From: Eukaryota sp. TZLM1-RC
Lineage: Eukaryota > Protista > Metamonada: BaSk clade
Length of the DNA: 64,000 bases
Assembly: GCA_040285825.1 (NCBI GenBank)
Contig: JAUPSS010000005.1
Coordinates: 1,178,001 to 1,242,000 of the forward strand
Reading direction: 5' to 3'
The position numbers were made by a program, and so were the translations under genes. Positions 17,211 through 62,540 of this stretch are shown one piece after another; position 1 is the stretch's first letter, and every line of letters starts with the position of its first letter. The notes beneath the pieces were generated by a model. It had not been told where the DNA came from, searched no databases, and saw nothing but the letters and a program-made list of their open reading frames with translations.

Positions 17211-17213
17211 TAT

Positions 17214-30700: not shown

Positions 30701-33700
30701 TCAGAAATATCAACATTGGTTCCAGTAACTTTAGTATTATCTTTAATATTGAAAACTCTACCTTCAAGACCTTGGAAATTGACATTATTCATTGTCAAAG
30801 TAGTTTTGGTTAATTCAAAGTGACCATCAGTAGCAGTTGAATCACGAACAAGAACAGTTTCTAAATCAATAGTAGAATCAGTAGCAACAATAGACTGAGA
30901 TTGACAACCAACAACAACTACATCATCAAAGTCAACATTAGATTTAACAAGGGTAATAAGAGGTTCATCATTAGCACATCCACTGATAACATTACCATCA
31001 GAATAAACTGGACCTAAAGTTTTGACATTGGTGAAGTCCAAGGTTGAGTCATCAGCATTGATAAATGAACCTGAATAAGAAGTAAGATCGACAATATCCA
31101 AATTATTTAAAGAAATTTCAGATTTAGAAGTGGAATCAATTAATCTAAAAACAGATGAATCAAGTATTTCAGAATCAATCAAAGTTACTTTACTAGAGGA
31201 AATCTTCAATAGGGGCTCAGATGGAGTATCAATATTTAAAATTTTTACACGCAAAGTATCAACTTTAGAATCACTCTTTACATCAAAGATTTTACCTTCA
31301 AGATTGTTAAATTCAACATCAGTTGCAATGAAATTAGAATTGGTTAAATCAACATGTCCAGAAGCTTGTGAATCCAGTACATCAACATTAGTAAAGGTAA
31401 CATCTGCATTGATAATACCAACAAGAGTTTGGGACAAATGACCAATAAGTGAGGAATCAGCCAAGGTAACCTCTGAATTATCAACAGTAAATAAAGGATC
31501 AGTAAATGAACAAGTGACAGTAGTTGAAGTAGTAGATTCCTTGACAATATTGATATTATCTAAGGTTAATTCAGAATTACTTGAAGCATCAAATAAGGAA
31601 CCACCATAAGTATCAGGATGAGATACCCTTAAATCATCAATTATAATAGTAGAATCAATAGATTCAAAAGCTGGTCTTACACAAGAATTAATAATTTCAG
31701 CTTGTTTTAAATCAATAGTAGAAGATTCAGTAACCATCATCGGATCATCATTAGTATTGGTATCGATAACATTAACATTTAAACCTTCAACTTTAGAATC
31801 ACTCTTTACATCAAAAACTTTACCTTCGAGTTTCTTAAATTCAACATCAGTTGCTTTGAAGTCAGAATTGGCTAATTCAACATGGCCAGAAGATTGTGAA
31901 TCTAATACATCAACATTAGTAAAGGTAACATCTGCATTGTTAATACCAACAAGAGTTTGGGACAAATGACCAATAAGTGAGGAATCAGCCAAAGTAACTT
32001 CTGAATTATCAACAATAAATAGAGGATCAGTAAATGAACAAGTTACAGTAGTTGAAGTAGTAGATTCCTTGACAATATTGATATTATCTAAGCTTAATTC
32101 AGAATCACTTGAAGCATCAAACAAAGAACCACTATAAGTATCAGGATGAGATATCTTCAAATCATCAATTATAATAGTAGAATGAATAGCTTTAAAAGCT
32201 GGCCTTACACAAGAATTAATAATTTCAGCTTGTTTTAAATCAATAGTAGAAGAATCAGTAACCATCATTGGATCATTATTAGTATTGGTATCAATAACTT
32301 TAAGAGTTACACCCTCAACTTTACAATCACTCTTTACATCAAAAACTTTACCGGCTAAGTTGTTTAATTCTAAATTATCAATGTTCAAAGTAGATCCAGT
32401 TAATTCAAAAGCAACCGATGCTGCTGAGTCCTTGACAATAAAATCTTCGGTGTTTATGAAAGAATCAGTTGCTATAATTGTACCATGATCACATTCACTG
32501 GCAACAATTGCTTTAAGACCCAAATCAGATTGGGAAACAGTGAACAAAGCTTCACTGTTGGCGCATTGAAAGACCACGTTACCAGTTTCTCCATTGACCC
32601 TGGATATCTGAAGATCTTCCTGACTGAAGGTGTATGAACCAGAATAAACACCGGGGTAGAAAAAGACATTCTTAGTGTCATCAACATTTGCTATTCTCAC
32701 AAGGGCTCCAGATAACGTTCTACAAGGATAAGAAGAAGTTCCGCAACAATGGTCGTCAAAGCCACCTGTTGACACGTAAGCAGTATCACCGAGATCATCA
32801 ACAACTGCATCTAAAAGTTCAAGCTCCATAGTTTCAGACAGATATGATAAATTCCAAATATTTTCACATAAAAACAGTGGAGATAATGCAAATTCGTTAG
32901 AATGAGATGAAAAACGTAGAAGAGTATAAGTTCCAGCAGTAGTAAGCTGTGCTTCAATACCAAGAACCAAAGTACTACCACTGTTGATATCAACATGACC
33001 AATAACTATTAATTCCGCAGGAAGACTAAAATCACATATAAATTCAGAACTAGAATGGAAAAAGACAGAACCTTCTATGTTCAACTCAGGAATAGGCCGG
33101 ATTGAACCATAAATGTTCATGGCAGAAGTAATGGTACCTTTACCACTGAATGTTTTCCCTTCATAAACCTCTAATGTGTTGGTACTCAGAACTGTACCTT
33201 CATTTAATACCAAGTTTTCCTTAATGTCAAGCATAGTGGAAATTTTGGAAAGAAGTGAACCCCAGATGCTGAGATCATTTTCAAAAATAAGTGTGCCATA
33301 ATTAAGAATTAAATCACCACCAATAAAACTTTCAACCTCTGTCGTAACAGATCGATCAGAGTCCACTGTTAATGTACCATTAATTACAATCTCGCCATCC
33401 CCAGCATTTGAAGATTTCAAACTAATTTCAATCGGAATAACGTCTGAAATTGATGGATAGTAAATATACGTATTGTGATACGAAACTTCCGCATTGAGAC
33501 CCTTGACAGTAGAAATACATTCTGGAGACCACCTTGTTCCCGTGAAATCTCGTCCCCATCTCCAAATGTTGCCGTTAGATTCCACGGCTAAAACCTGCCG
33601 ATGCTTGGCCTTTATTGAAATTATATCACTTAACCCAGCAATTTCTTGAGGAGTGTCGATATCACTTGTTTGACTTGAACCCAAACCCAATTGACCATTC

Positions 33701-35010: not shown

Positions 35011-35099
35011 TATATACAAGTCAGGAAGAAGTTAATATAGAATGGTCAGTGCAAATCACATCAGCGACGTTTCTAAAATTGGATTACATATATATTGTT

Positions 35100-38000
35100 T
35101 TTCTTTTATTTTCTCCCCCTCTTTCTCCATTGTCCAAGTTCCTCCGCATACTTACTGTGGTTCCTGTAAGTTCTGATATGGATGATAATGTCAGTCTAAA
35201 AGATTGGGATGACAACGCATCAATTAAATGTCGTTCTATTGTCAAACCATCTGGACCCCTTTCATCCACTTCTCCTACACACCCTCTTCCCTTCATTTCT
35301 GCCTGGAAAAAAATTTTCTTCAAAATTTTTGCAAAATTTAGAAACATCAAGAAATTGCCCAGAAGCCAGTTCAGCTACGTTACGTCGTAGTATTCATTCT
35401 CTTGCGAGATGCAAACTCCCTGCGCAACAGCAAAAAATTTTTATGTCGAAACCAATTATGAAGCCTCAGAACAGTAATATTGAATTTCGTTCTCCCATTC
35501 AACAACATTGCTCTTCTTCTATTGCAATAAACAGTCAATGAAATAATTTAATTACTAGTAAAAATAAATCAAGACGAAAATGTTCAATTTGCGGAATTAG
35601 TGGTCATAATACTAGGACTTGCAAAGAAAATAAGATTAATGCTTTAAAATTCCAATCAGCTAACCACGTACTTAACACTTGTTTTCTTGGGTCCAACAAT
35701 GGAGAACTTATGGTGACCTTATGGTGCCGGAGTTCAATCATTATTTTCCACTAATATTGAAAAACCAAGTATTGAAACTCTTGAAAAATTAAAGAAGCTC
35801 CATTCTGAAGAAAAATTTGTTTGTCCAAAACCCAGTATTTGTGAGTTTTGGACTAATAATCCAATTAATGCTTCTAAAGTTCTTGCTTTAATTAAAAAGT
35901 TACCAAATGGTAAAGCTGCAGGACCATCAGGAATTTCGTTTGATATTTGAAAAACCGCCTGCAATAAGATACCTGAAATTACAGATGATTTAGCTTTGTA
36001 TTTTAAAATATTGGTTTCATTGAAAGTCATTCCTGCTCCTGAGCTTACTGTTGCCCGTCTTATTGCTTAAGTAAAACCTGGTAGTGATATCAAGCTTTCA
36101 ATAATTCGTCCCATTGCAGTAAGTGAATCTATTTCGTCTGTTTGCTTCAATTATTTTGACTAGAATGGCTGAAAAGGCTGGAAAATTCTTGTCGCCAATG
36201 CAATTTGATACTCAAACGATTGATAGAGCTTCAGTCGCTGTTCTAAAATCAGCTTTGTTCTTTAACTGCAAAGAATACAATTATATTTTCACTTTAGATT
36301 TTAGAAAGGATTCCAATAGTGTAAAAAGAAAAGCAATTTACGAAGTAATTCAAAAACATTTCCCTGAACTATCAAGTGATTTTTTTTGTTTTACCGTAAA
36401 CCCAGTGAATTAGAATATGATGTATTTTCTCTCAAGTATTCATCAGGTGTGAAACAAGGGGATCCTGGAGGCCCATTATTATTTTGTATAGCAATCTAAT
36501 AATCATTGATTGTTATTAAAGAAAAATACCCTTTTCTTAAAATTGAGGGTTACATAGATGACATCTCCCTTATCGGTCTTTTTGATGTTGTCCAAAAAGC
36601 TTCAAATGAAATTGCTGAACAATATGAAATTATTGGTCTTCACTTGAATCCTGAGAAATGTTTATCAATTGGTAATGATGCCAGGGAGTTGATAATTAAT
36701 AATGGTAAAATCCATTTTACCAATTATTCACAAAAAGCTTTCTGTTTTCTACGGTGTTGGACAGGAAATGTTGATGAAATTACTATAAAATTTTTTTTGT
36801 TGCGAAATTGTTGCAAAACTTGGTGCTGAGCTTCAATTAATTTTTGAATTAGAAACAGAAAGACATATCAAATTTTTATTTTAGAAATTTGTTACTCCGG
36901 AAAAATTACTCACTTATTGAGGTCGACAGCACCTTCGTTGTCTATCGATTTTACATAGTTTTCAATGAACTTCGTGCAACTTTCTTTGCTTCCCTATTAG
37001 ATGTGAATCCTGAGCTAATTCGACCTCACTTGTCCTCTTCGTCACAACTCGGTGGTGTTGGCTTCACCGAATCTTCAATTTTTTGTCAAGCAGCTTTTGT
37101 TGGCGGTGGCAAAAATTTTATTTCTGACTTTCTTAATCGTTTCCCTGAAAATATTCATTTGCTGAGTTCATCATTTTCCAAATAATTGTATGATACTATG
37201 TATTTATTGAATTTGCACATTTAATTAAATTAACTCATAACTAATGTGACGACTATCATTGAACCAAGATTTCCTCTACAAAATCTTGATCTGCTTGCTG
37301 TCTAGCTGAAGCTTCTCTAATTCGATTGAAAAACCGAGGTACTCTATTAATAATGGCAAATTGAATCCGTGAACGCCATAAAAAATTATCAAATCTTTTC
37401 ATTGTTTTTTCTATTGTATGACACTGATAATGCTATTGATAGAATTCCACGCGAAATTTGATGTCACTGTTTTCCCGACTCAGTTCAAGAGATTCCTCCA
37501 CGAAATTTAGTTAATTTATGATATTGTGTGAAAAATCTCTAACAAAAACTGATAGTAATTTTTGAAGGCTTGGATTATGAAGAGCGTCTTAACTTGGCTA
37601 CACAAAAAAATTCCGCTTTTGCAAATTTTTACTGGTTGTTTGTGTTAGTTTTGCCTCTGGTTTAATTAATCAAGTACCAAGAATTTATGGTTTGTTTTTC
37701 AATGACCCTTGTTTTTTTATTATCTATGCGTCTTCAATCGATCTTTTATTTGGCCTGCTAATCTTCCTCATAGATTAATTTGTAAATGTGGAAAGACTGT
37801 CACTCCAACCCATTTGTTTAATGGTAATCGTTTGATTACTTTTGAAACATAAGTGCATGATACAGTGGGTGATCAGCTTTATTGTATGTTTAAGTCCTAC
37901 AAGATTGAATATTTTTTAGAACTTTTGCGTTCAAATTTGGCTGACGAATCTGACAGAAATTCTGTTGGTGACAGCCGTGGTGATGTGCTAGTTCCCAAAC

Positions 38001-38450
38001 TTGATGGATCAATGTTTCAAACAGCTCAATTGAAAAACTGGCACTATCTTATAATTCACCTTTACGAAGAGCTGAAGAAGCGAAAATTATTAATTACACA
38101 AAATAATCAATAATCTGAATTCCAACTCACATACTAAATACCTTCTTTGTCCTTTTGCTATTTCTTTATTTCTTTATTTTGAACCTTGGGTAAAACTGTG
38201 TTATCTTCTTTAGACGATTTTTCATCTATTGTCAAAATTAGAACAGGAAGAATATTTGACTGAACCTTTTGGCAAAAGAGAATTGTATTTTCTATTTTTT
38301 AAGGAATGATTAGCCTTGTTTCTAGCTCGTTATTATCACTAGGAAAATTTTATGAAGAAAATGCTATAGGTAAGTTTTCAATAGTAGATGAGGAGTTTGA
38401 GCAGATTGATTTTATGTTTTTTTTACAATTTTGTTTGAATACAATATTTA
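35100..38450 (+). mobile_element. Near full-length degraded family C non-LTR retrotransposon with N-terminal CCHC zinc knuckle, RT and RLE
   Basis: CSICGISGHNTRTC at ~35581-35622; GKAAGPSG, RPIAV, GVKQGDP, YIDD, GGVGF, HDTVGDQL, RGD; many stops. Confidence 0.88.
37198..37412 (-). mobile_element. 5'-truncated family A 3' end nested in the family C element
   Basis: Matches 13890-14100; TSD attgtatga(t/c)act at 37185-37197 and 37413-37425. Confidence 0.9.
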
Positions 38451-38849
38451 TAAAATACAGTATTTTAATTATGCTCTTATTCTAGAAACTTTCGAAGGGT
38501 GCCATTTGTTCATCCACCATCAGACGTACAAGAAATCAGATTGACAACCATTACATGAAGAGGCAGTATCAAAAATCAGAAACCTGTTATATTCATTCAA
38601 TATTGTCAAATTTACGCTTTTGATTGATACACCCGTCATGAATTCCCACAACCCAGTGCAAAATTAAATTGTCTCTGGAGACCTGCTCTCATAAAATGCG
38701 TTTGTAGGGGAAATCAGTTTTTATATCAACATCAGGGTTACTGTTTGAAGATTGTACATTTGTGTAAGCAGTACATTACAACAGCTTTATTGATTGTACC
38801 TAAAAATCATAGTATTTTTTCGATTATATTTTAATGTCCAAAATGAAGC

Positions 38850-41570
38850 AACCTACCTTTTGAATTTTTGAAACGTTTTTTTTTGAAAAACAACATTTAA
38901 TAGAATGTTGTGTTAGTGACTATTTAGTGTCCTGGCAGAGTGAAATTGAATGCATGTCTCCTCACATATGGTACAAATGCTTTCCTGCTGATATTCAAGA
39001 AATTCCACCCTGGAGTTTGATTTCCTTGAAATTTGCATATGTTAAATTGCAGAAACAGATATTAAAAGTTTTTGAAAACTTGGATTTCACTGTTCGTCTT
39101 AGCTTGGCTAAAGAAAAGAATCCCGTTTTTGCAAACTTTTTAATTGACCTTAAGGAAAATAGCTCAAGTTGTCTTATTTCCCAGATTCCAAATGTAGATG
39201 GTCTATTATTAAATGATCATCAATGGACAACTGCCTTCAGGATGACGTGTTTTTGTGGCCATGTAGTGTGCCAATTGATTTAGCTCATTAATCTGAATCA
39301 TTTATTTAATTGCAAATTTAATATTACATATTTTTTTGACCAAAATTTTAATTTTATTCAAAACCTATAAATAAACATCTGAAAAATCCATCTCTCCCAG
39401 AAAAAAAACACTAGATGCAACTCTCTCATAGTGAGATCCAAGAGAAAGCAAAGCATCAGAAACCATCTTCAACATCCCCTTAAAAATAGAAAACACAATT
39501 CTATTTTGCCAAAACAATCTGTTGAAATTTCTCCCAGTTCTTCTCTTTACAATCATTTCAAAATCATCCACAAAACGTAAAGAAGTTGGTGCAAGTGAAC
39601 CAAAAAGGGAAAATACAAAATGGGTACAAATTGTATTTTGTATGCTGTAGACTGGCCAATTTGGACAAAGGTTCATTGTATTTCTTGAATTTAAAATTGT
39701 CAGCATTTGAAAGGGGATTATGAATTTCAGAATTAACTAGCCTTTCATTTGAGGCATTACAAGGATCAACAGACATTACATCCAATGAAATGAAACTTCC
39801 ATCTAATCCAGGTGATATAACATCACCTCTATTATTCTTATGAAAATCATCTTCAGTATCAAACAGATTTGACAATAGAGGTTCCAAGAAGGATTCAATT
39901 CTATGAGATTTACACATACAATATAACTGGTCTTCTACAGCATCATGAACCTTGCTTCTAAAAGTAATAAAATGTTTACAATTTAACAAATGAGTAGTTG
40001 TAATTTCTCGAGAACATTTACAAATTAAATTATGAGGTAAATTATCAGGCCAGATAGAGGAACGAAATCTCATATTAAAATTCCAAGCAGAATCGGTTAA
40101 GAGAGTACCATAAACTTGGGGAATTGTTGTTGCTAAGGCGGAAGAAGTACTGTCACACATATCTTGTAAAAGATTTGCAAAAGCGGGATTCTTTTTCTTG
40201 GCCAAGCCAAGTCTAACATCAAAGTCCAAGCTTTCAAAAATCTTTGACAATTTTTGTTGAAGCTTTTTACAGCAAAACTGTAAATTAAAAAGAGATCGGT
40301 TTGGAATTTCTTGAATTGATTGAGGAAAACATTTGGTCCAAATTTGTGGCGGCAATTTTTCAAGTTCACAAGATAACTCATACAAATAGGGACTGCAATT
40401 GAAAACTAACAGATGAGAAGCATTAGGAAATCTACAAGAAAATTCATAAATAAAATTTCTGCCACCACCCATGAATGCTGATTGACACAAAATTGAAGAC
40501 TTAGTAAATCCAATATCACCCAAATTTGATGAAGAAAATAAATGACTTTTCAACATTCCTGGTTCTACATCCAATAAATCAGGAAAAAAATCTGTTCCCA
40601 ATGAATTAAATGAACGACAAAAATCTAATGCTATGGAAAGAGCACAAGATCTCAAAATGTGGGTTATTCTTCCAGTGTAGCAAATTTTAAGAATGAAAAA
40701 TTTAATATGCTTTTCTATATCTAAAGAAGAAATTGAATCAAATTCAATTTTCATTTTTCCAAATAACTTGCAATTCATTCTGAATTTGAGGCACGTTTCC
40801 TAACCAACAACCAAGGAACTTAAAAGCATCACTACTATAATTAGTAAAAGGGACAATAGAATCGTTTATCACAAGATCTTGAGCAGAAGAGCCAATCACA
40901 ATGCATTTGCTCGCATTAAAATAAAGCCCAATATTTTCATATGAATCATATTACATATCGCTCAGTTGTTCACGATGCTGTTAGAGACCAACAATACGCA
41001 ATGTGCAAAAGTCATCACATCGAAGCTTTTGTTGAACCACTTGTGCGAAGGTTGTCATCTGAAAATGAAGATGAAAATACTTTTGTGAAACACCATGCTG
41101 ATTTAATTACCCCTGCGTCTGATGGTGTTATTGAAGTTGTTGATTTTGTCACTGTTGATGTTGAAAAGACTCAGCCATTGATTTTGCTAAAAGAGATGAA
41201 ACTCCAATTTGCTCTGCTGAAAAGAGCGAAATCAAAAAGTACAATGAACCCTTATCTCAGCTAGGACGTGTTGAGCATGTCAAGTATCAGTTGGTTCCAT
41301 TTGCTGTTTCTCTTTTTTGTAACATTGGAATATCTGGCATTAAATTTCTTGAAGGTTTCAGAAGATTAATAAAAGAAAGAGCAGGAAAAGAATCGAACTT
41401 CAATTTCTGGCACAATAGAATTGATTTTACTATTCTTAAAGCACTTCCAGAAATGTTGACCAAAGCACTGTTACAATTAGGAATAGAGTATGAAAATCGC
41501 GCGCTTAAAAGATTTGATGATGTTGATGTGTGTATTGAGGATATTGAGTTCTAGTTTTTTATTAAAATGA
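38850..41570 (+). mobile_element. 5'-truncated family D non-LTR element, split by a nested insertion
   Basis: 38927-39331 and 40948-41554 rejoin as HLFNCKFNITYRSVVHDAVRD; ends IEDIEF*. Confidence 0.85.
39332..40947 (-). mobile_element. 5'-truncated family B non-LTR element nested in family D
   Basis: Post-RT, CCHC and RLE ORFs 39564-40778 and 39365-39706; short tail (T-run from 39332); TSD atattacatat at 39321-39331 and 40948-40958. Confidence 0.92.
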
Positions 41571-42351
41571 AGTAACCTTGTGCAACTGAAGAAAATATGT
41601 AAATAAATCAAACAAGCAAGTATTTGCACCACAACTTTGAAATCAATATCATCATTAACAAGTTTCCAAAACAATTGACATTAGACATTGTTTAACTGCA
41701 CCAAAGTGTGCGAAATCCCTGTTCCTTGGTAATTCAACTGATAGAATTATTCAATGTTGATGAGAACGTTCTGGTTTCCGCAATTTTCAGAATTTGAAAC
41801 ATGATTTTCTGGTTAGAGGAATGTCTCTAACTCAGACAACTTAAAAAAATTATTAGTATTCGTTAAAACGGGTAGAGGAAACTTCAGACACCGCAAAGTG
41901 CTCTCGAGGCTCTTTTTGATTAAGACATCGGTGATGTAGGTTTCAAGATTCTGATTGTTGAATTGGCCATTTGTCCCTTCATTAAAGAATGTTCCACAAC
42001 ACAATGCTGAAATCTTCAAAGAATATCAAAATCCCTTACACCAAATAGTATATGAAGAAAATACAAAATTCATTCAGATAAGGAGAAAAAAAGTCATAAC
42101 TCCCATTAAGCAAAAATGTTCTTTGTTTCAAATTCAAGAATCTATTATTGGAACGAATTGAAAACAAAATAGAAAAATAAATAATGCAACACTACAACTA
42201 CTACGAGTATCTGTTAAATGCAAATGTGGGATGCTTACAGTTGTTTTATCATTGTTTTAGTTCGTACCAATAATTTCCATCCAAATATTTTTCTTTGAGC
42301 GAAAACAGTTGCTTTACAATCATTGATTTCTTGTTTCAAGTTTTTACTTTA

Positions 42352-43533
42352 ATGCTTCCCACATGTCTTCATTGTGGTAACTTCCTTGCCCTTTCTGATA
42401 TTCATTCTGAGGAAGAACCTGTACCGATATGCCCAACTTGTGCTCCCAAATCCCCTTCATCAACATCTGGTGACCAACACACCCACTCTGACAACAACTT
42501 TGATGTTTATACTACTGTTTTTGGATCAATCCCTGTTTGTGATCAGTCCACTAACACTGATGGTGCTTTATATCAAGATGATTCTTACTTAGATACCCTC
42601 CAATTTAAACTCAAATCCTCTCAGGAACGTATCTTGACATTAGAAAAGGAATTGCATTTTGAAAAAACAATGGCAAAATCTTCAGTACAAGACCTTGAGA
42701 ATGAACACAAAGCCATAGTTGCCAAGTTAAAGTCGGACTACCAAGCAGAAATCACCAAAATTGAGTCATCTTATAAGGAACAACTGGAGAAATCCCGACC
42801 TAGTCCGACCCAAGTCGATCTAATTCCGACCCAAAATGAGTTGATTCAAGAATTGCGAACGGAATTGTTAAAACAGGAAGCCTTGTTGGTTAAAGCTAAT
42901 GAAGACTTGACTAAAGCGCAGCAACGACTAGAATTAGCTCATCTAGGTCAATGTGTAACCCTCTCTCAAAACCCCGATCTAACCCGATCCAATCCCGACA
43001 CAACCCCATCTAGTAAAAGGTTGGCCAAGAGTAATGACGAGCCGCCAAAGAAACTGCGTAATGTGGATGACCTTGAACTTGAGGACTTGGTAAATATGCT
43101 TGAAGCCCTCCCAACAGCTCGTGACAAAGTTTTACTTATACTAAGCGTTCATTTGCCTATTTCTGTTGCTAAACTAGTTGAGTTGAGGGCACGCGATGTT
43201 TTTGACTATGAAAATAAGACACTTGTTGTTTATAAAATAGCAACAAAACGTCGTAAGCAGTTCTTAGACTTGAGTAAAATGGCAGATGTTTTTAAAGATT
43301 TTTTAATTGATTATTTATTACCAATGCCCCCCCAAGGTTTTGTTTTGTACAGCACTGAGGCGATGAAAGGTTCTGAGGATAGGAAGCCTGTCTATGATAG
43401 ACATTTGGCTCAAGGAACCGTGTGGACTTTGTTTAAGAATGCTGCTAAAAAGGCAAATATAGAGGGAAGGTTTTCAAGGGATACTATAAAGAACTTTTTT
43501 GATATGGTTTCAGTAGATATGATGTTTAATTAA
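42352..43533 (+). CDS. Zn-finger + coiled-coil protein with C-terminal inactive tyrosine-recombinase (phage integrase)-like domain
   Basis: First ATG 42352; CLHC...CPTC; long coiled coil; RDKVLLILSVHLPISVAKLVELRARDV...KDFLIDYL...VWTLFKNAAKKANIEGRFSRDTIKNFF aligns by eye with XerD/Tn554-type catalytic domains but lacks the catalytic residues. Confidence 0.72.
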   Translation: MLPTCLHCGNFLALSDIHSEEEPVPICPTCAPKSPSSTSGDQHTHSDNNFDVYTTVFGSIPVCDQSTNTDGALYQDDSYLDTLQFKLKSSQERILTLEKELHFEKTMAKSSVQDLENEHKAIVAKLKSDYQAEITKIESSYKEQLEKSRPSPTQVDLIPTQNELIQELRTELLKQEALLVKANEDLTKAQQRLELAHLGQCVTLSQNPDLTRSNPDTTPSSKRLAKSNDEPPKKLRNVDDLELEDLVNMLEALPTARDKVLLILSVHLPISVAKLVELRARDVFDYENKTLVVYKIATKRRKQFLDLSKMADVFKDFLIDYLLPMPPQGFVLYSTEAMKGSEDRKPVYDRHLAQGTVWTLFKNAAKKANIEGRFSRDTIKNFFDMVSVDMMFN

Positions 43534-44219
43534 GGTTTGTCTGTTTTTTTATTAATTCATTGTTCCTTTAATGTTTTATTCAAATAGTGTTTGTTTTGTC
43601 TATTTAATTAATTAATTTTTTTATGAATTTATTTTTTTGATTTTTTTGATTTTTGGAGACAGTGATTGTTCAATTCTAAGGTTTCTTCAGTTTTCTTATC
43701 CGCTCTATTTACTTATTTATTGGATTGATTGGATTTATTTGGGACTGGAAATTAGGGAAATTTGTTTAATTTTTGTGAAAAGGAGTAATTCAAATGTGTT
43801 TTTCAGCTCTTACTGCTGGTGTTAGTGGTTGGGCGAGTTGATTTTAATTTTTTGTATTAATTACATGCAACACAAAACAATGATTCGATATGAAATATTA
43901 AGAAAGTCAATGTTCTCATTTTCGAATACACACTCTACACAAATAACATTTCCATAATTCTTGCACACAAGGCCTCTGACTTGGTATGCTTTCGATTCAA
44001 TATCAAATCAGTTTCTTTGAATTAATTGTCGCATTGGGAACTCTATTTCGAATGGTCTAGGTGTGTGATCAAAGCAGGATTTTGGAACAAATTGAATTAA
44101 TGTTGATTAATAATAATAAGTTGAATACTTTATTTCAAATAATATAAAATTACATTATATACAAAATCAAGAAATATGTAAATCAAGAGATAACAGTGAA
44201 AAAGACCAAACACCGAAAA

Positions 44220-44337
44220 AAACAACCAAAAATTTCATCTCAACCAAAAATTCCATCTTGACAAACTCAAATAAACACCCAAAATAAATAAAAATAAACA
44301 ACCAAAAATTTCATCTTGGCAAACTCAAATAAACACA
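44220..44337. repeat. Imperfect local duplication between convergent genes
   Basis: caaccaaaaatt(t/c)catct occurs three times and caaactcaaataaacac twice. Confidence 0.6.
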
Positions 44338-44367
44338 TTACAATTTCAATAACAAAAACTCAAAAAG

Positions 44368-46209
44368 TTATCGTGTTCCTGACAAAATTTCCAGGGCTCC
44401 TTTACTGTTGCCTCCCAAAGCACTTATTGATCTTGGTGTAAAAGTTTTTGCAGCTACTGATCTTTTGAAAATCTTTTCGTAAATAATATTCAATAAGCGA
44501 CCTTTTGCGATCAAAGTTGGCAAAATTTTCAAAGTTGATCCATTCAAAAGATCAATATCGAAATTTTCCAAGTCTTCAGGAACCTGATACCTGGCACTTT
44601 CTATTTTAGTCACATTTCCTGAACTTTCTTTGTAAATTTGACCCTTTACGACCTCCAAACTTTCCTTCAGTAAGAGCTCAATCTCAGCTAATGAACGTTT
44701 ATACTCGAAAATTTCATTCTTGACAACCAAAATTTCTTCATCCACTGATTTTATGGCTTCTCTTAATTTATTAACTTGATCCACAATCTTCAACTCCTGC
44801 TCATTGCTAGCCAAATAATTTTCTTTTAATATCATATCATCAGTTTCTTCAGAAACCTGACCCTCATCAGACAGTTCATCATCAGAAACTTCCACGTCAT
44901 CAATAACGTAATCAGTGACGTCAGCAGTCTCCAATTTTCTTTCCAACATTTCATTTTGGGCTTTGTAATGATCTAACTTAGATAAGCTCATATTATAATC
45001 AGATTTGATTGCCATTAGATCAGAATTGAGTTGACTCTGACGTGCCAAAAGGTCATTATTCAAGCACGTCAGAGCTAGCGTTTTTCTCCTTGAATCCGCA
45101 AGACTTTTAGAGGTTTGATTGAAAAATTCAACAAATTCTTCCATCTGGGACACCACATTTGAATCATTTTCTACTTCTAATTGCTGTCGTATAGAATCTA
45201 CTCGTGACTCAAAGCCAGAAACCATTTTCTTCATTCGTTCTGTGATTAGAGTTGGAAAAAATGAAATAAAAACAAATAAAAAGGATAAGGCATTAGCTAG
45301 AAAACTGGAAAGGGTGGTTGTAAGTTGAAAACTTGATTTCATAGATATAAGAAAAAGCTCAAGTCAAGTTAAAAACAACAAACTTAATACGTTCGATTCA
45401 TAGATAATTCTTATTCAATATTTGATAAATAAAATTATAAACCTTATTATTTCCTTTTCATTTTTAAATTAAACCAAAATAAACATACCTTCTGAAGTTT
45501 GTTGAGCAACTCTACTCATTTCATCAATTTTATTGTTAATCTCCGAATGCAATTCCCTCACACTGCCTAATTCAGCATCGACTCCATTTTTGGAAACTAA
45601 AGAATTAATCTGATTTGTGAGAGACTCAATCATTTGATTGAGCTGGTTACGTGATTTGATGAACTCTGATTGTTTATTCTTTGCTTCCTGGGCAAGTGAA
45701 TCTCGTTTTTCAGTCAATTTAGCATTTTCAACAGTCAGTTTCAGCATTTGTTTTTCCAATTCATTCGCAGAGGGCATTGAGTTAGCGTTGGGGTTGGGGT
45801 TAGACTCTACAGCTGTACTTGCAGAAGGTCTGGCTGAAGATCTTTGGGCATTCCTGAGGTTAGGGTTAAAGTTAGGGTTCGAAGCTAGTCTGATTGGAGG
45901 AATGAGAAGTTGTACATTGGGTTGGGAAGAATCTGATCGATCCGGGTTTCTTGTGGGAGTTGAAGGAAAAGGGGAAGCTCTATTGTCTGGGGAGAATGGT
46001 GGAAAATCTGATAAGGCGCGTTCTAAGGAAGCAAGAAAGTCAGAAGAGGGGTCATCCGTGTGAAGACGCTCAGTACGTTCTTCTTGAAGGAGTTCTTCTA
46101 GTTTGCGATGAAAGGCAAGAGAGTCTGCACAATCAGGATTACTGACATCAACAGCTTGTTTAAGTTCATCTCGTCGTGGAGTACGAGCAGTGGAGCGTGC
46201 TGATATCAT
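44368..46209 (-). CDS. Uncharacterised coiled-coil protein, 530 aa; exons 46209-45489 and 45239-44368
   Basis: 249-nt intron GTATGT...CTAATCACAG (45488-45240) joins ORFs 45469-46209 and 44368-45342 in frame (QQTSE|ERMKKM); total 1593 nt. Confidence 0.8.
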
Positions 46210-48106
46210 TGAAACAGATATTGTCTATAACAATGAAATAAGTGTCCTTTTTGGGGACTGAGTTTTTGGGAAGTGGAAGATTTTCTTCTCAATGCCTTTG
46301 AACCTTTGTCAACCTTGACTCTCTGCAGGTATTCCGGTCTATCTCCACCATTTACATGTGCTTCCATCACTGCCAACATATGCAGCGAAGCATTTCGATC
46401 TCTATTCCACAAACTTTCGCATGATTTTACACATGGTAAGCCCGGGACGAATAGACATCTCATACCTCTTCCATGGCCTAGGATTTCTGCACCATCGGAA
46501 TGTTTCAACTGTCTTCTCCGCTTTCTTACAGTTGAAACAACAACAACTGGTTCGAAACTCATCAATCAAAAAGACCTTATAAACAGCCTTTTTAAATAGA
46601 ATTCTCAACCCTTTTCCTTTGGTAGGTTCTTTGAATTTCATGTGTTTTCGTTGTTCCCAGTCTCCGATTCCAATAACTACTTGGCTGGGATCACCAATTA
46701 CTCATTTGAATCTTTGGATCATCTTTGCCTCGGATCTTGTGCGATTAATCTCAGCCCACCATCTTAGTTTTCTAAATATTTTTTGATGATAGACGTGACC
46801 AACAATACTATTCACATAATTCTTTTGTTTGATATACTCCATAAATCTATCAAACCTGCAGCTTTTGGAGTTGAATTGGGATAATGTTGCCTCCCATTCT
46901 GCTACAGATTTAGTCGTGTGATCATTATTTCTCAAATTTAATGAGTAATTAATTTCGTGGGGAATATTGATTTCTTGAGGTACTTCACCTCTTAATAAAC
47001 TAATTGTTCTTTCAGTCATTTGATTAATTATACTGCTGTTTAAATCCATCCTTTGTTGTTGTTCTTCAGATGGTTCATAATTGGATAGACCCATCACTCT
47101 ACTAGTAGAGTCACTTATTGTGATAAGAGTGTCATTGCGTATGCTGTCTCTTATTCTTTCGAATTTGGAACTTTTCGACTCAAATCTTTGTTGATTTTGA
47201 GTGTACCTGAAATGAACATATTTGTCTCTCTCAGATTTTTTTGAATGCGTCATTCCAAAAGCTAAATTGACAGAAAAAAAGAGTAGATCAGATTTTCCTG
47301 GATCAGCAGCAGCAAGTGTCATATCTTGGAATTCAGAAAGATTGATGCTGGGGTCATCAATATTTTTCTTCATCTTTCATTTCTTTTGCAGTTACTTTGT
47401 ACTTTTTCAAGTCCATTCTAGATTGAATGAAACTTACTGCTATTCCATCAGTCTCGATACTAGACATGATGTATTTGGAATTTTCCGAATATAGTTTAGT
47501 GTTTTTAATCTCGTCCATTTTTAAAATGGTGTCCCATAAAATCAAATCAGCAGCTTGATTATTGCATTGGTAAGACGACCTTGGACCAAGAATGTCCTTG
47601 AATTGGACAAAGAACAAGTCCAATAAACTTGTCTTGTCAATTCTGATATACGAGGGAATACAAGAATTCTTCAAAGGCAGAGCATGAAAGAGTTTACTCT
47701 CCTCATCCTCTAAATAATTATTACTATTAAACATTGCCCTCAAATAGTAATTTGATTTTGAAGAAAAATCAAATTTTGAATACTTTTCCCTTTTAGAATT
47801 ACTGGGAAGTAAAAGAGGGATCTGGTCATTAATGAAAAGCGAAGTAATTGATCAGACTTTGTTTCTCGTTGCACACGTTTCGCCATCAATATCTCTACAT
47901 CCTTTTAGAAGGAGGGATTTAACTTTGCTGATGAATGTTGAGAAGTGTTTCTTATCTTGCTTTTTCAGGACGTTGTTGTTTCTCTTAACATCATAAAAAA
48001 CATCGACAAACTGATCCAAGTAATCAAAGTTATGCTCCTGGATGTTATTTTTGAAATTCACAATCAGTTTATCAGTTGCGCAATACAAAATATTACTGAT
48101 TCCTTT
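46206..48106 (-). pseudogene. Fanzor (eukaryotic TnpB-like RNA-guided endonuclease), N-terminally truncated, four lesions
   Basis: LPLKNSCIPSYIRID, SIETDGIAVS, RuvC-I AADPGKSDL (47296-47304), GIGDWEQRKHMKFKEPTKGKG, RuvC-II LIDEFRTS (46558-46563), CFNC...CKSC, RuvC-III WNRDRNAS (46398-46400), RPEYL; in-frame TGA at 47852 and 46702, frameshifts near 47360 and 46427. Confidence 0.9.
46241..46330 (-). ncRNA. Candidate Fanzor omega-RNA scaffold / element right end
   Basis: Four consecutive hairpins directly after RPEYLQR, ending at a TA (46239-46240); position matches known TnpB/Fanzor omega-RNA architecture. Confidence 0.4.
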
Positions 48107-49170
48107 TTTTGATAAATCCTTTAAATGAATCACATCCTTTATTAATTTCTCTTGAAAAAATGGTGCAAGAACTACCTGTTGATATTTGGAATAGGAGTTT
48201 TCCTTCAAGTTTGCCTGCTGTGCCTTCGAGATCTTTCACCAACCTTCATCTTGCTGTTGTGAAATTACAGAAGTCTGTTCTTATTGGTTTTGAAGACCTG
48301 GAATTTTCTAAACGACTTAGTGTGACTAAGATTAATAATCCCGTCTTTGCTGCCTTTTTATCAGACATTCAGAACTGTACTAGTTTAATATCTCAGCAAC
48401 CAAGGCCATTTGGTCTTCACTTAACAAATGAAGCTTGGAAACAAAACATGCGGTTGAGATTGGGGGTGTATCCAAGTGGTCTTTTGGACAATTCTTATTG
48501 TATTTGTAACAAAAAACCTACTGCCAATTTTCGTCATATTGTGAGCTGTAAGAAATTTCTCCAATATAGGACAGTTCTTCATAATGCCGTTCGTGATGTG
48601 ACATATGAGATGTTCAAGTGTTACAATTTTAGTTGCAAAGTAGAACCTTTGTTGAAGCATTATAGCGATAATAATCTGTTTAATTCACGTCGAGGTGATT
48701 TAATTGCTCCTTTTGTGCATTCCTCACAAGTTGTTGTTGATTATACTACAGTTGATCCCTTTGCTTTTATTTATCGTGATGATGTTTTACTTAGTGCTAA
48801 TGGTCATTTAAACAAGGCTGAAGATCGTAGAAGAGATAAATATACTGAGATATTAAATGATTTAAATAAGAATCTTTACTCGAAGTTTTCGTTTTTTCTT
48901 TTTGCCTTTTCGATTTTTGGCAACATTGGACAATCCGCCTTGAGTTTCATCAATGATTTTGGTAATTTATGTCGTTCAAGTGGTAAGAATTTTGCACAGA
49001 ATTTATGGAAAAATCGTATCATTTTCGCTTTGTACAGAAGTGTTCCCAAGTACTTGATTTTAATGATGTCTAAACTTTATGAGGATTCATCAAGAGTTGG
49101 CGTGGAGAATTTAGTTTCTTATGTGTTTTAGTTTGTTTTGTTTTTATTTGATTCTTTATAATATATTTAA
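48107..49170 (+). mobile_element. 5'-truncated family E non-LTR element (CCHC + RLE) interrupting the Fanzor
   Basis: CICNKKPTANFRHIVSC, HNAVRD, RRGDL, DKY; highly similar to 54065-55090. Confidence 0.92.
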
Positions 49171-49649
49171 AAATTAATTAATTAAATTAATATTGTCAAT
49201 AAACTATATGCTGTATCAAAAAGTGTTGGTGATAAAATTCCTACGTTGCACAACGAAAATTTTGCAAAGTTGTTTTTGTCTTTGCGTTAAGGGAACTTTC
49301 CTTATCGCTTTGGGACGTGACCACAGGAAAAGCATCACGAAATAATTGGGTTTCAATTTTTGGTACAATAGCATTTGGGTTTTAAGTCAAAAAGTTGCAA
49401 AAAGGGATCAACTTCATGAACCTCCCAATACTTTGCATTATATTGAGGATCAAGGTCAATATTTCTTTCCCCTAATAAAATTTTGGAAACTGTGTTTAGT
49501 TTGCGTGGTTTGTAATAATTTGTGTAAATACTACAAGTATCAACAACAAATCGACCAGCATTTTAGGGGTTCAAGTGTTTGTGATTCAATTCTATTATAT
49601 TTGAGTTATAGAATTGAACCCATTCAGTAGCACCGAATTCTCCCTTTAA

Positions 49650-50215
49650 AAAAGTCCTCATTGTCAGAACGTTTCATAAGATGTGGGATGTCAAATGATG
49701 ATTTGGACGTTGAATTTCAATCATCAAAACACAAAGTACATATTGACCCTGGTAAAAATGATTTACTGTATTGGTGTGGCCAAAAATGATTCAAACTTAA
49801 TGCAAAAAACCAACTAAAAAGAGATAAACAATATGAGTGGCTCAGATTGACAGAATTGGAATGATCAAGGGTATCGAGAGTTCACCAAAAATTCAGAAAA
49901 TTGAAAAAGAAAGAGTTTATTTTGCAAAATGAAATCACAGTGGAAGAAACAGATACTGCTTTATCAAAAGAATCATCAAAATCTTTTATTTATAATAATT
50001 TCTATTCTTATGTTGCTTCCAAGATGACAAACATGACATTTACATTTGATTACTACTGTTTAATGTTATGACGCATTCAAAAAATGCAAAGGTATTTCCA
50101 TTATCAGAAAGCAGAAGCTAAGTTATTAAAAAATGGCTGAAATACAATGGAAGCAATAAAACACTATCCTAATGTTTGGTGACAATGGCAATAAGACAAA
50201 GAATTTGAAGTATCA
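49650..50215 (+). pseudogene. Second, divergent Fanzor remnant (RuvC-I region)
   Basis: Manual translation across frameshifts: KVHIDPGKNDLLYWCG...YEWLRLT...ETDTALSKESSKSFIYNNFYSYVASK...YQKAEAKLLK...ILMFGD, colinear with 46660-47320. Confidence 0.75.
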
Positions 50216-50224
50216 TCGATCAAG

Positions 50225-50530
50225 TAGTTATTGATAAGAATCACCTCTGTGGTTCTTATGAAAATCATCTTCAGCATCAAACAAATTTGGCAACATATGT
50301 TACAAATAAGATTCAATTCAATGAGACTTACACATACAATATAATTAGTCTCTAACTGCATCGTGAACCTTGGTTCTAAAGGTGATAAAATGTTTAAAAT
50401 TGAGCAAATGAGTGCACCTTACATTGGCAAATTGAATTACGAGGCAAATTATCAGGCATGATAAAGGAACGAAGTATCATATTCAAAGTGATCCAGGCAG
50501 AATCAGATATGAGAATCTCATAAACATGAG
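50225..50530 (-). mobile_element. Degraded family B-like internal fragment
   Basis: Similar to 39820-40110 (gaaaatcatcttcagcatcaaacaa...catacaatataa...gaacctt). Confidence 0.75.
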
Positions 50531-52808: not shown

Positions 52809-53576
52809 ATGAGTCTTCATAAGTGTATAAATTCAAATGAAATTCCAGCACGTGCTCCCAACGCCAATGCTTGCACCTCCAAGCCCATCAATGATTCTGA
52901 CCAAAAGCCCCCAGGCGAAGAGTTAGTCGGAAAGGAAGTCGGTTCAAAGCTTCGTGTTCGGGTTTATAGTAGTTTTGAATGTTACGCACAGCTTATTGTT
53001 TCCAAGGTGAGGAGAGGTTTTAATCAGAATTGGAATAACGTTGACCTTTTCATTAGCCACGACATACATATCAACGATTTTGAGGATTTATGCAACTGTG
53101 ACGTTGTTGTCATCGACACTAACCAAATGACTTGGAATGTTGCTTTTCTCAATCGTATATTTGAATCCACTTGTGGATCATTAAAAGGTTTGGTTTTGTT
53201 TAACTATGTCCCAGCGGATGGTTTTAATCATTCTTGCTTCGAGGATGGTAGTTGTGATTATTATTATCTTCAATCACCAAATGACTTCACCACAATGATT
53301 CCAACACGTGATGATGATCCTTTACTAAGAAATGTAAAGCCCTTCTTATTGAATTGTGGTAGAATCAACACCCAATGTATTAGTGGCACTTTGGTTGCTA
53401 CTATTGAAGATGGTACTCCTTTATTTGCCAAGAATGTTGTCTGTGGACAGAGATTTGTCGAATTTTTGTTTCATTCAAACACTTGGGGCAATGTTCCAAA
53501 TGATGGACCTTTTGAATCCTCATCGGAATGTGATTTATTAATAGCTAATGCTGTTGCCTGGTGTGGTCATGTTTAG
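52809..53576 (+). CDS. Uncharacterised protein with class I glutamine-amidotransferase-like (flavodoxin-fold) domain
   Basis: DVVVID...GLVLF...DGTPLFAKN...LLIANAVAWCG; paralogous to 57100-57727; fold call is tentative. Confidence 0.6.
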   Translation: MSLHKCINSNEIPARAPNANACTSKPINDSDQKPPGEELVGKEVGSKLRVRVYSSFECYAQLIVSKVRRGFNQNWNNVDLFISHDIHINDFEDLCNCDVVVIDTNQMTWNVAFLNRIFESTCGSLKGLVLFNYVPADGFNHSCFEDGSCDYYYLQSPNDFTTMIPTRDDDPLLRNVKPFLLNCGRINTQCISGTLVATIEDGTPLFAKNVVCGQRFVEFLFHSNTWGNVPNDGPFESSSECDLLIANAVAWCGHV

Positions 53577-54039
53577 GTTTAAATATATGGATTTGAATAT
53601 GTTTTTTTTGTTTTTATATGAAGTAACCAATTATTATTATCATTAGTGTATTTTGAATCCCAATAACTTAAAGATTGATTAAATTAATGTTAGATTATGA
53701 AATTAAGCGGAGATCTACTAACAATTGAAGCATTCAGTTGTCTTTCAACAGGTTTATAATCTTACATCATAAAATTATTGAAAGAAGAAAAACATACTTT
53801 GCCAAAAATATATCGGTAGTACAAAAAGCAATAAAGATCATTTAATTATCGAGCAATCATAAATTCCGAATACATACTCAAGACTACAAATTATTATAAA
53901 TTTGAAATATGAAAACAAAACATTTTGGTTGATAATTAGATTGAATTCAGGCAGTAAATTTTTTTTGTTTGATTTGTTTCAAATACAATATGAATTTTCA
54001 ACAATATTTAATTTTATTTTTTGATGGATATTTTCTACG

Positions 54040-56575: not shown

Positions 56576-57727
56576 CTCACCCCCCCCCCAATCCCATCGA
56601 TGAGTCCAATCAAAACTCAACAGAGACTCGTGTTTGTAACAACTGCACCAAATCAGAAGCCACTCTCTTCTGTATTCAATGCGATGGTTATCTCTGTACG
56701 CAATGCTCTCAGGAACTGCATCTTAATCCAATTTTGCAATACCATACCCCTCTCGAAATCCCAGCCTCTCGTACTACCTTTAAATGTTCTCGTTCAACAA
56801 GAATGAATCTTTCATACAATTGTGAAGAAGATTTAATGAGCATTACTTATCAAATTCATTTTAATCATTTAGATGAGCAAAAGTTCATGAATATTGTAAA
56901 TTTTGGAATTATTCACTCATTTCCGGAGTTAATTGCCAAAGTTATTGACAATTACCACTTTCAGCCACCACCAAAAGTCGTTAAAATTCCTGTCGATATC
57001 CTGCTTAAGTTGGCGCTTAATGATGTTGATGATACAACAGAACGATGGTTGGAAAACGTAGTAAGAATTAGTTGTACCTGTGACAATTTTGCACATGTTT
57101 CCAAAAAGTTATTGGGAAAGGAAGTTCAAAAACAAGTTTCAGTTGCAGTTAGTTGCCAGCGCTTGTCTGATCTTGATAGCAAACTGAAGGAAGGACAGGA
57201 GAAGAATTGGAATGATGTTGTGTTTAAAATTACGAAAAATCCCCAGGTCCGCAATCGTGAAGACTTAAACCCTTATGATGTTGTTGTTGTGGAATCATGG
57301 AAATCTAATCTTCCAGGAACTCTTCTTAATGAAATACTTGAATCAGAAAAAGGTTTGGTTTTTTTCCATTCCAATCCAATAGTTCGTTTCAAGTACTCTT
57401 GTTTTTGAAAAAATAATTGGTCGTACTTTCGAAAATTATACAGAAATGGTTCGAGTAGATGATTCTGATTCTTTACTATATAATGTTAAAACTTTTTTTT
57501 ATAGAGATGGTATTAAAAATACCCAATGTACAAGTGGAAAATTGGTTGCTGCCATTGCCGATGGTACTCCTTTAATTGCCAAGAATGCTGTTGGTAGTGG
57601 TAGGTTAGTTGAATTTGGGTGTTATTCGTCTTCGTGTGGTGCAGAGGCTTCATATGGCTGGGATGCATCAACTGATGGTCATTTATTAATAGCTAATGCC
57701 GTTGCTTGGTGTGGTTTTTGTGTTTAG
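56576..57727 (+). pseudogene. B-box zinc finger + GATase-I-like domain gene; disrupted near 57405-57445 and 5' end abutting a retroelement
   Basis: CNNCTKSEATLFCIQCDGYLCTQCSQELH...H B-box; C-terminal half paralogous to 52809-53576 and split over two ORFs. Confidence 0.7.
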
Positions 57728-62005: not shown

Positions 62006-62492
62006 CCAGTTTAAGAAAAGAATGAATTATTAAATCTTCTGCGATGAATGTCAAATTTTCCACAAATTTTCACACCTTGGCAGATGAATTGATGCAGGAA
62101 TAGGGAAAATGCTGAGGAAAAGCTACTATAGTGGTACCACAAGGACGAATGCAACTACTGATCATATGATTACTTACGAGTTTATGGATTCAATTCTTTA
62201 TGCATACGAAGTGAAAACTGCGAGATTTTAAAATCACTTATTCGTTCAATGGGTGAAATGATTTAACACAATTCACGATGAAATAGAATGCGAATACCCA
62301 AATCAATGACTTCATTGATGTAGTTTCTCGGTTTCTAATAACTTTCATTTGTTATCTTTAAAGCATTTGTTATCTTGGAGTGAAACCATCTTATGAATGT
62401 CGGTTCCAAGGTTATGATCGCATATAGTGAGAAAAGGTGACAGAATTGTGGAAGTATGTGAGTCAAACAAAATCCTCCATTCTAGTGAAATT

Positions 62493-62540
62493 ATATTTAT
62501 TGAACTTGCACACTTAGATAAATTAATTCACAACTAATAA
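62493..62540 (-). mobile_element. Tiny family A 3'-terminal fragment
   Basis: atttattgaacttgcacactt...aactaat matches 13891-13935. Confidence 0.6.

What the first reader, a model, noticed from the sequence alone, without database searches (positions are those of the whole stretch)
42352..43533. Intact host gene carrying a catalytically dead bacterial-type tyrosine recombinase domain
Seen: an uninterrupted ORF with no flanking element features, encoding CxxC...CxxC, a ~120-aa coiled coil, a basic patch (PSSKR...PPKKLR, possible NLS) and a C-terminal domain (~43066-43533). By eye the domain tracks XerD/Tn554-TnpA integrases: RDKVLLIL vs RDKAMLEV; PISVAKLVELRARDV vs GLRVSELVGLTMSDI; FKNAAKKANI vs KHYAVLAGI; SRDTIKNFF vs SPHVLRHAF. 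The catalytic Arg is Ser, HxxR is DxxK, and the protein ends before the His/Tyr nucleophile segment. Known: recombinase folds were domesticated as non-catalytic DNA-binding proteins in yeast Ndc10 and in Crypton-derived ZMYM/KCTD1. Inference: an independent, probably undescribed domestication as a dimeric DNA-binding, chromatin or centromere factor.
Basis: partly seen in the sequence, partly recalled or inferred. Interest (0 to 1): 0.8.

Follow-up and report, generated by a model that had tools for sequence, protein, structure and literature searches.

The report
Dead recombinase gene in skoliomonad protist
An anaerobic protist has an intact gene ending in a bacterial-style DNA-recombinase domain that has lost its cutting residues, and one distant relative has the same design, so it is likely a repurposed nuclear DNA-binding protein, a kind of recycling already known from yeast, animals and phages.

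Summary
42352-43533 (+) is an open 393-codon frame. Its last 157 residues are a tyrosine-recombinase catalytic domain (Pfam PF00589 at the cut-off; best structural matches XerA and XerD). The first Arg is Ser, HxxR is lost, and the protein stops before the His/Tyr segment; no splice restores it.

New here: among 1.84 billion protein representatives, one relative has the same design (coiled coil, basic patch, dead domain; about 30% identical). It is P9112_010489 of the skoliomonad Eukaryota sp. TZLM1-RC. The two share 25 residues that are rare in active enzymes, so they likely descend from one inactivated ancestor kept under constraint. No element borders and no close siblings were found.

Not shown: orthology (the relative may be a paralogue, and none was seen from two other skoliomonads), expression, DNA binding, dimer formation, any centromere link, and the donor (bacterial, phage or eukaryotic virus).

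Best reading (0.6): a lineage-restricted domesticated, non-cutting nuclear DNA-binding protein. The kind is known (Ndc10, DUF3504 genes, MrpR). The Xer-like, catalytic-domain-only version in a metamonad was not found in print. Interest is moderate.

The parts
42352..43533 (+). Open reading frame, 393 aa (P0001), apparently single-exon
   Evidence: identical sequence in the protein database; no splice variant extends the domain
42364..42441 (+). CxxC-x18-CxxC putative zinc ribbon (C5, C8, C27, C30); absent from relative P0002
   Evidence: Pfam Zn_ribbon_8 E 0.0047, below cut-off
42586..42942 (+). Predicted coiled coil, residues ~79-197; P0002 has a coiled coil in the same place, with only weak similarity
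   Evidence: heptad count and shuffle test, 7 of 500 shuffles as high; SMC/Rad50-type coiled-coil hits for P0002
43015..43059 (+). Basic patch K222-R236, bipartite-NLS-like; P0002 has KRR at 193
   Evidence: consensus recalled; localisation untested
43060..43530 (+). Truncated, catalytically dead tyrosine-recombinase catalytic domain, residues 237-393
43162..43164 (+). S271 in place of the first catalytic Arg (Pro in P0002)
43381..43425 (+). R344-W358, conserved with P0002 (R344, K345, H351, T356, W358). Leads into the helix that aligns with XerA 202-222; candidate DNA-contacting surface
   Evidence: the DNA-recognition role of this helix is recalled, and searches found no passage for it
43480..43491 (+). 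D377-T-I-K380 in place of HxxR (KWLR in P0002); the frame ends 13 codons later, before the His/Trp and Tyr positions

Best explanation
The gene encodes a coiled-coil protein ending in a tyrosine-recombinase domain that lacks the residues needed to cut DNA, and it is likely a host-retained (domesticated) nuclear protein that binds DNA without recombining it. Shown: fold, loss of the active site, one diverged relative with the same layout, and no element around it. Inferred history: a prokaryote-type recombinase catalytic domain entered a skoliomonad ancestor from a bacterium, phage or endogenous virus, lost its first Arg and its His/Tyr tail once, and was joined to a coiled coil. It then split into at least two genes or lineages (P0001, P0002) that stayed under constraint. 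Inferred mechanism: the basic patch imports it into the nucleus. The kept N-terminal three quarters of the catalytic domain grips DNA through the beta-hairpin and the conserved R344-W358 helix. The coiled coil would supply oligomerisation or partner binding in place of the missing C-terminal helices that join recombinase subunits. The most likely job is transcriptional or chromatin regulation, as for most Crypton-derived genes and MrpR.
For: Fold: hhalign prob 96.3, E 2e-9; XerA Z 11.6, XerD 10.4. Dead. Relative P0002 (397 aa; E 4.6e-9, 32% over ~130 aa): domain score 167 against shuffles 29.4 +/- 4.8, 0 of 500 as high, and 25 columns identical in both but present in under 10% of 32 active small recombinases, including HLP where the motif around the first Arg sits. 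Neutral simulation: 0 of 1000 copies of the ORF stayed open when drifted to 55% identity. Each protein is a one-member, one-contig 90% cluster, and no other hit appeared among 2856 and 360 candidates. No part of the ORF is repeated in the window; no terminal repeats; no other frame over 79 aa between the flanking features. Codon use is slightly host-like, +0.022 against -0.03 to -0.06 for the non-LTR relics. Precedent: PMC3212892 and PMC10516654 (passages); C-terminal helix role in PMC3646895 (abstract).
Against: No syntenic orthologue was shown. P0002 may be a paralogue, and no relative was detected from the two skoliomonads that gave the nearest UBX hits. The constraint could have acted while the gene was on a mobile element. 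Non-LTR relics in this window also keep open frames of 320-400 codons, so an open frame alone proves little. The codon signal is weak (the Fanzor relic scores +0.061, a large host gene -0.068). The P0001 domain has net charge 0 (23 K+R, 23 D+E), against about +11 for P0002 and for active enzymes, which is unfavourable for DNA binding. The N-terminal halves are barely alike (11 of 500 shuffles as high) and the zinc ribbon is not shared. My AlphaFold model used 32 phage recombinases in its alignment, so its Xer-first ranking is biased; no Foldseek hit reached E 0.001.
Confidence: 0.6

Rival explanations
1. Stranded accessory gene of a mobile element or endogenous virus (Polinton-like virus, phage-derived insert or extinct recombinase element). 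The dead recombinase served the element, for example as an MrpR-like repressor, and the copies now sit in the genome with little or no host function.
For: The window is rich in transposon relics, with a non-LTR relic 785 nt upstream. Not detected in two related genomes. Protist endogenous viruses, metamonads included, are documented, and many carry recombinases (PMC10120064, passages). Dead recombinases work as phage repressors (PMC10516654, passages). The Atlas feature hits are 135-150 aa unnamed bacterial proteins, which might be naturally truncated forms; I could not retrieve them.
Against: At most 2.8 kb lies between the flanking features, with no capsid, polymerase or RT frame and no terminal repeats. 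No siblings at 50-90% identity. No relative in viral or metagenome contigs by pattern scans (low sensitivity). Both known copies are intact at about 395 aa.
Confidence: 0.22
2. Host gene, but the dead domain is a protein-interaction or structural module and no longer binds DNA.
For: Net charge 0 of the P0001 domain. No core-binding-domain match. PMC3212892 (passages) names protein-protein interaction as the other likely role of domesticated recombinases.
Against: Basic residues before the candidate recognition helix are identical in both proteins (K339, R344, K345, H351). NLS-like patch. P0002's domain is as basic as active enzymes.
Confidence: 0.11
3. One reading: an Ndc10-like centromere or inner-kinetochore DNA clamp that arose independently in skoliomonads.
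For: Architecture by analogy only. Ndc10 is a dimeric, non-specific DNA-binding, recombinase-fold protein (PMC6077249, passages). Coiled coils are common in kinetochores (own knowledge). A related free-living metamonad lacks canonical segregation complexes (PMC8516963, search listing only).
Against: No sequence match to Ndc10 or DUF3504 profiles at E <= 10. Ndc10 ranks at Z 6.1-6.4, against 11.6 for XerA. An essential centromere factor should be conserved in sister species, where none was detected. The skoliomonad genome paper has no mention of kinetochore or centromere.
Confidence: 0.07

Closest known systems
Xer-type tyrosine recombinases: archaeal XerA (PDB 4A8E, 5HXY), E. coli XerD (1A0P); Pfam PF00589, NCBIfam NF040815, PHROG 216
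   Same: Catalytic-domain fold over 133-138 residues, Z 10-11.6; weak sequence match.
   Different: First Arg, His and second Arg replaced; His/Trp, Tyr and C-terminal helices absent; coiled coil and zinc ribbon where the core-binding domain would be; eukaryotic host.
Small (~180 aa) phage and Bacillota recombinases with an HTLRK motif, including unnamed fragment P0003
   Same: P0003 is the nearest active sequence (30% over 70 aa, E 2e-4) and shares a loop insertion. 8 of the 15 loci fetched from the Bacillota scan are of this type. By their length they also lack a core-binding domain.
   Different: They keep the catalytic set. They score no better than XerD/integron-like proteins in profile comparison (68.6 against 68.5), so they are not established as the donor.
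MrpR/YopR of phage SPbeta (PDB 8A0A) and SroF of phi3T (9RD5)
   Same: Prokaryotic recombinase fold turned into a non-cutting DNA binder (PMC10516654, passages); Z 6.8 and 6.1.
   Different: These are phage repressors. MrpR keeps the core-binding domain and the Tyr. No direct sequence relationship was seen.
Ndc10/Cbf2, Gcr1 and DUF3504 genes (ZMYM2-4, QRICH1, KCTD1, KIAA1958, WOC)
   Same: Eukaryotic host genes with a dead recombinase domain fused to other domains (PMC3212892, passages).
   Different: Crypton-derived, in fungi and animals; no profile match here; lower structural scores (Z 5.8-6.4).
Pf-Int of Plasmodium falciparum
   Same: A recombinase gene kept as a conserved protist host gene that binds DNA (PMC3466309, abstract).
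   Different: Pf-Int keeps R-H-R-H/W-Y and the N-terminal helical bundle; unrelated lineage.

Membership tests
Tyrosine recombinase superfamily (fold) | Catalytic-domain fold or PF00589 match | tested here: met
   PF00589 27.1 bits = cut-off for the domain alone; Atlas TM 0.70; VIA Z 11.6, rmsd 3.4, 138 aligned to 4A8E
Active tyrosine recombinases | R-K-H-R-H/W pentad and Tyr nucleophile | tested here: not met
   At most K299 kept; S271, D377, K380; last two positions absent; no splice rescue in 106 variants
Active tyrosine recombinases | N-terminal core-binding domain | tested here: inconclusive
   No Phage_int_SAM-type Pfam hit and the region reads as coiled coil plus linker, but it was not modelled on its own
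Crypton-derived host genes (DUF3504, Ndc10/Gcr1 types) | Profile match to DUF3504, NDC10_II or GCR1_C | tested here: not met
   None listed at E <= 10 for P0001 or E <= 1 for P0002; HMMER filters drop most weak matches
Crypton-derived host genes (DUF3504, Ndc10/Gcr1 types) | Closer to Crypton/DIRS recombinases than to prokaryotic ones | tested here: inconclusive
   Xer ranks first, but the model was guided by phage sequences; P0002's Atlas model also lists DUF3435, oomycete and DIRS-type clusters at TM 0.60-0.65; no eukaryotic recombinase was in my tree
DIRS/Crypton/Polinton-like element | Terminal repeats, companion genes (RT, capsid, polymerase), multiple close copies | tested here: not met
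   (window only); one-member clusters. Whole genome not held
Domesticated gene | Intact frame, catalysis lost, outside an element | tested here: met
Domesticated gene | Syntenic orthologues in related species | tested here: inconclusive
   One relative, orthologue or paralogue unknown; the neighbour search gave no locus tag to compare
Domesticated gene | Purifying selection by dN/dS; expression | not testable with these tools
   No DNA for P0002 and no close orthologue; no sequencing run was listed. Only indirect support from the simulation
Centromere/kinetochore factor | Centromeric localisation and binding | not testable with these tools
   Needs localisation or ChIP

The most novel reading that the evidence does not exclude
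Skoliomonads independently recruited a prokaryote-type recombinase domain as a coiled-coil DNA clamp for centromeres or chromosome organisation, a convergent counterpart of yeast Ndc10 in a lineage whose relatives have lost parts of the canonical segregation machinery.
Probability: 0.07. Interest if true: 0.85.

Novelty: new variant of a known kind. Interest (0 to 1): 0.4.

Why it matters
If domesticated, it adds an independent case, in a deep-branching anaerobic protist, to a recurring pattern: recombinase folds lose their active site and become DNA-binding regulators. It differs from the described eukaryotic cases in matching Xer-type rather than Crypton-type enzymes, in keeping only three quarters of the catalytic domain, and in carrying a coiled coil. 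That makes it a natural test of the minimal DNA-binding core of the fold. It also gives a named candidate for lineage-specific chromatin factors in metamonads. Without orthology, expression or function, the biological payoff is still hypothetical.

Tried and rejected
Whole-genome copy number: no genome held. Cluster look-up: no answer available. Sequencing runs: none was listed, which is no evidence on expression.

Homodimer prediction of residues 75-393: no answer, scores 0.31 and 0.26 against a mark of 0.32, controls not folded; neither for nor against. Single-sequence AlphaFold gave pLDDT 46 and was not used.

Pattern scans for relatives found none: P0001 in viral contigs; A3 in metagenome and viral contigs; P0003 in all three collections; A6 in viral contigs. 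A6 in genomes gave 2 ordinary Lachnospira recombinases out of 105 pattern hits. tblastn of the domain: no match in phages; 4 weak cyanobacterial plasmid integrases at E 0.3-4.

Synteny through the neighbouring UBX gene: uninformative.

Donor by tree: unresolved. 22 rows, 2 of 19 inner branches starred; P0001+P0002 join at 87/83, flagged as long branches. I left out L092 (fragment) and L094 and L097 (near-duplicates), and cut long proteins to their last 200 aa. AU tests, with groups named after seeing the tree: with P0003 p 0.23; with the XerD-like L089 p 0.044. A narrow profile of 34 small phage recombinases scores the domain only 10-14 bits, below Pfam's general model, so I dropped the idea that this family is the proven donor.

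A hidden exon carrying His/Tyr: rejected. No Rfam match in the window. No passage found for the DNA-recognition helix. PMC13667924 (passages) was irrelevant.

Full report
Observation. The frame 42352-43533 (+) is open for 393 codons, and the protein database holds the same 393 residues on one contig of 1.86 Mb. It has CxxC motifs at C5/C8 and C27/C30 and a bipartite-NLS-like stretch at K222-R236 (consensus recalled). Pfam Zn_ribbon_8 scores below its cut-off. Residues ~79-197 look like coiled coil (crude heptad count). The window is eukaryotic: it holds a protein kinase with ANTH/ENTH match, a cytidylyltransferase, a UBA-UBX protein and RVT_1 fragments, and a neighbour with a GTATGT...CAG intron that splices to 530 aa.

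The domain is a tyrosine-recombinase catalytic domain. Pfam PF00589 gives E 4.1e-6 and 27.1 bits, equal to the cut-off, for residues 234-393, covering profile positions 7-128 of 172; it is the only family listed for that piece at E <= 10. NCBIfam's best is archaeal XerA (E 1.3e-4, far below its cut-off) and PHROGs' best is integrase family 216 (E 0.003). The ESM Atlas's own model matches integrases at TM 0.64-0.70 in all 8 rows shown. An AlphaFold model made with an alignment of 34 sequences (pLDDT 80.9, pTM 0.79) gave only recombinases among the Foldseek PDB rows shown, none at E <= 0.001. Against 48,161 chains by VIA-align it scored: XerA Z 11.6, XerD 10.4 and 10.0, lambda Int 9.6, topoisomerase IB 7.1-8.6, MrpR 6.8, Ndc10 6.1-6.4, QRICH1 5.8. 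That model was guided by 32 phage recombinases, so the ranking leans prokaryotic; the Pfam and Atlas results do not depend on it.

It cannot cut DNA by the known chemistry. The catalytic set is R-K-H-R-H/W-Y (PMC5357621 and PMC10516654, passages). In alignments with active enzymes the first Arg is S271, the hairpin Lys may survive as K299, HxxR is D377-T-I-K380, and the protein ends at 393, before the His/Trp and Tyr (shifts the HxxR register by one, which still gives no HxxR). A six-frame search of the window found no downstream piece with the missing segment. None of 106 possible GT-AG splices extended the match beyond position 135 of 181.

One relative shares the design. A full phmmer scan of 1.84 billion representatives gave 3 hits at E <= 0.001: the query, P0002 (397 aa, E 4.6e-9, 32%) and P0003 (125 aa fragment of an active recombinase, E 2e-4). 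P0002 is NCBI hypothetical protein P9112_010489 of Eukaryota sp. TZLM1-RC, on a 3.2 Mb contig. TZLM isolates are the subject of the Skoliomonas description (PMC11603281, search listing); skoliomonads are free-living anaerobic metamonads (PMC11316075, passages). P0002 has an N-terminal coiled coil, a KRR patch, no CxxC, and a dead domain: Pro at the first Arg, KWLR at HxxR, no Tyr. The domains score 167 against 29.4 +/- 4.8 for shuffles (0 of 500), and 25 columns are identical in both yet present in under 10% of 32 active enzymes. The inactivation therefore likely happened once, before the two split. The N-terminal halves are only marginally alike (11 of 500 shuffles as high). Under neutral substitution 0 of 1000 copies of the ORF, and 9 of 1000 of the domain, stayed open at 55% identity to the start. 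This shows long selection for an open frame, but not who benefited from it.

Orthologue or paralogue is open, and this is the main gap. The neighbouring UBX gene has its best hits in Eukaryota sp. TZLM3-RCL (43%) and GEM-RC1 (39%), 2 of 6 hits among 4187 candidates, with no separate TZLM1-RC protein. This places the window among skoliomonads and fits a paralogue better than an orthologue, although a word-index search can miss. No dead-recombinase relative appeared from those two genomes. They may lack it, may have it unannotated, or may be too diverged for the ~36-bit threshold.

Context. No part of the ORF, or of 41567-48106, is repeated within the window. There are no convincing terminal repeats. 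Between a non-LTR relic ending at 41566 and the converging gene ending at 44368, no other frame exceeds 79 aa, leaving no room for a DIRS, Polinton-like or phage element. P0001 and P0002 are each one-member clusters without closer siblings; repeat-masked copies might not have been called as genes. Codon use is slightly host-like but does not discriminate well. Against over-reading: non-LTR relics here also keep frames of 320-400 codons.

Donor. The two-sequence profile hit 20 of 401 genomes in one bacterial phylum at E <= 0.01. Of 15 loci fetched (of 21 matches), 8 were small 176-213 aa recombinases, 6 were XerD/integron-like and 1 was a fragment. Profile scores to the two groups tie (68.6 and 68.5) and the tree is unresolved. 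No eukaryotic recombinase was available for the tree. P0002's Atlas model also lists eukaryotic clusters, and protist endogenous viruses use recombinases (PMC10120064 and bioRxiv 10.64898/2026.06.19.733378, passages). 'Prokaryote-type' is the best match, not a proven route.

Mechanism. Shown: dead, truncated domain behind a coiled coil and a basic patch. Inferred: DNA binding, because residues K339, R344, K345, H351, T356 and W358 are identical in both proteins and lead into the helix that aligns with XerA 202-222, which I recall as the DNA-recognition helix. Against this, the P0001 domain is net neutral while P0002 and active enzymes are about +11. In XerA the C-terminal alphaN helix stabilises subunit contacts (PMC3646895, abstract). 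It is missing here, so the coiled coil is the candidate replacement. I put host-retained DNA-binding regulator at 0.6, stranded element gene at 0.22, non-DNA scaffold at 0.11 and centromere factor at 0.07.

Known versus new. Dead recombinases as DNA binders are established: Ndc10, Gcr1 and the DUF3504 genes from Cryptons (PMC3212892, passages; PMC6077249, passages), MrpR (PMC10516654, passages) and SroF (10.1101/2025.11.27.690993, search listing). Pf-Int is an active-site-complete protist host recombinase (PMC3466309, abstract). PMC8138268 (passages) describes prokaryotic recombinases as generally having core-binding plus catalytic domains. This protein works like those cases, but it is not an active recombinase and did not match the Crypton-derived profiles. 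I found no description of it: searches. The skoliomonad genome paper has 0 occurrences of recombinase, integrase, kinetochore or centromer- in its main text, and none of the six terms searched, including the locus tag, occurs in its searchable supplements (one scanned PDF was not searchable). Subscription journals and bioRxiv supplements were not visible. Earlier notes of this scan report similar dead recombinases in sea urchin, Rozella and Odinarchaeia (unchecked leads), which suggests the pattern is common and lowers the surprise. Verdict: real feature, new variant of a known kind, interest 0.4.

Noticed in passing
window ~46222-48235 (-): Broken Fanzor1-type (TnpB-like) nuclease gene with stops and frameshifts; piece 46405-46701 matches PpFz1 (9cf0, E 6.7e-12) and SpuFz1 (8gkh, E 4.2e-10). 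It ends about 12 nt before the ATG of the next host gene.
   Followed up: partly
window 46209-45490 and 45240-44368 (-): Two-exon gene (intron ~250 nt, GTATGT...CTAAT...CAG) for a 530-aa coiled-coil protein with no Pfam family above cut-off; converges on the recombinase-like gene.
   Followed up: partly
window 18754-35031 (-): 5,425-codon frame with an N-terminal hydrophobic stretch, an RCC1-like propeller, long internal repeats and a C-terminal membrane-like segment; looks like a giant surface protein.
   Followed up: partly
window 7784-17463, 36201-41566, 48107-50528, 53309-56722, 59914-64000: Many diverged non-LTR retrotransposon relics (RVT_1) on both strands. The C-terminal zinc-knuckle/endonuclease layout suggests CRE/SLACS-like elements (label recalled, not tested). 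Two copies are 92% identical at protein level.
   Followed up: partly
window 43535-43540 (+): Donor-like GTTTGT immediately after the stop codon, followed by T-rich sequence; possible 3' UTR intron.
   Followed up: no
ESM Atlas clusters: Both dead domains have as top feature hits (0.95-0.96) unnamed bacterial clusters of 135-150 aa without a Pfam family; these might be a family of naturally truncated recombinase-like proteins. Sequences were not retrievable.
   Followed up: no
L093 and L094 (small recombinases): Bacillota small recombinases with Lys in place of the first catalytic Arg but with HxxR, His and Tyr intact.
   Followed up: no
window 44208-44348: Short direct repeats (38 nt, 95% identical, 58 nt apart; 18-nt tandem) just downstream of the converging neighbour gene.
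   Followed up: no
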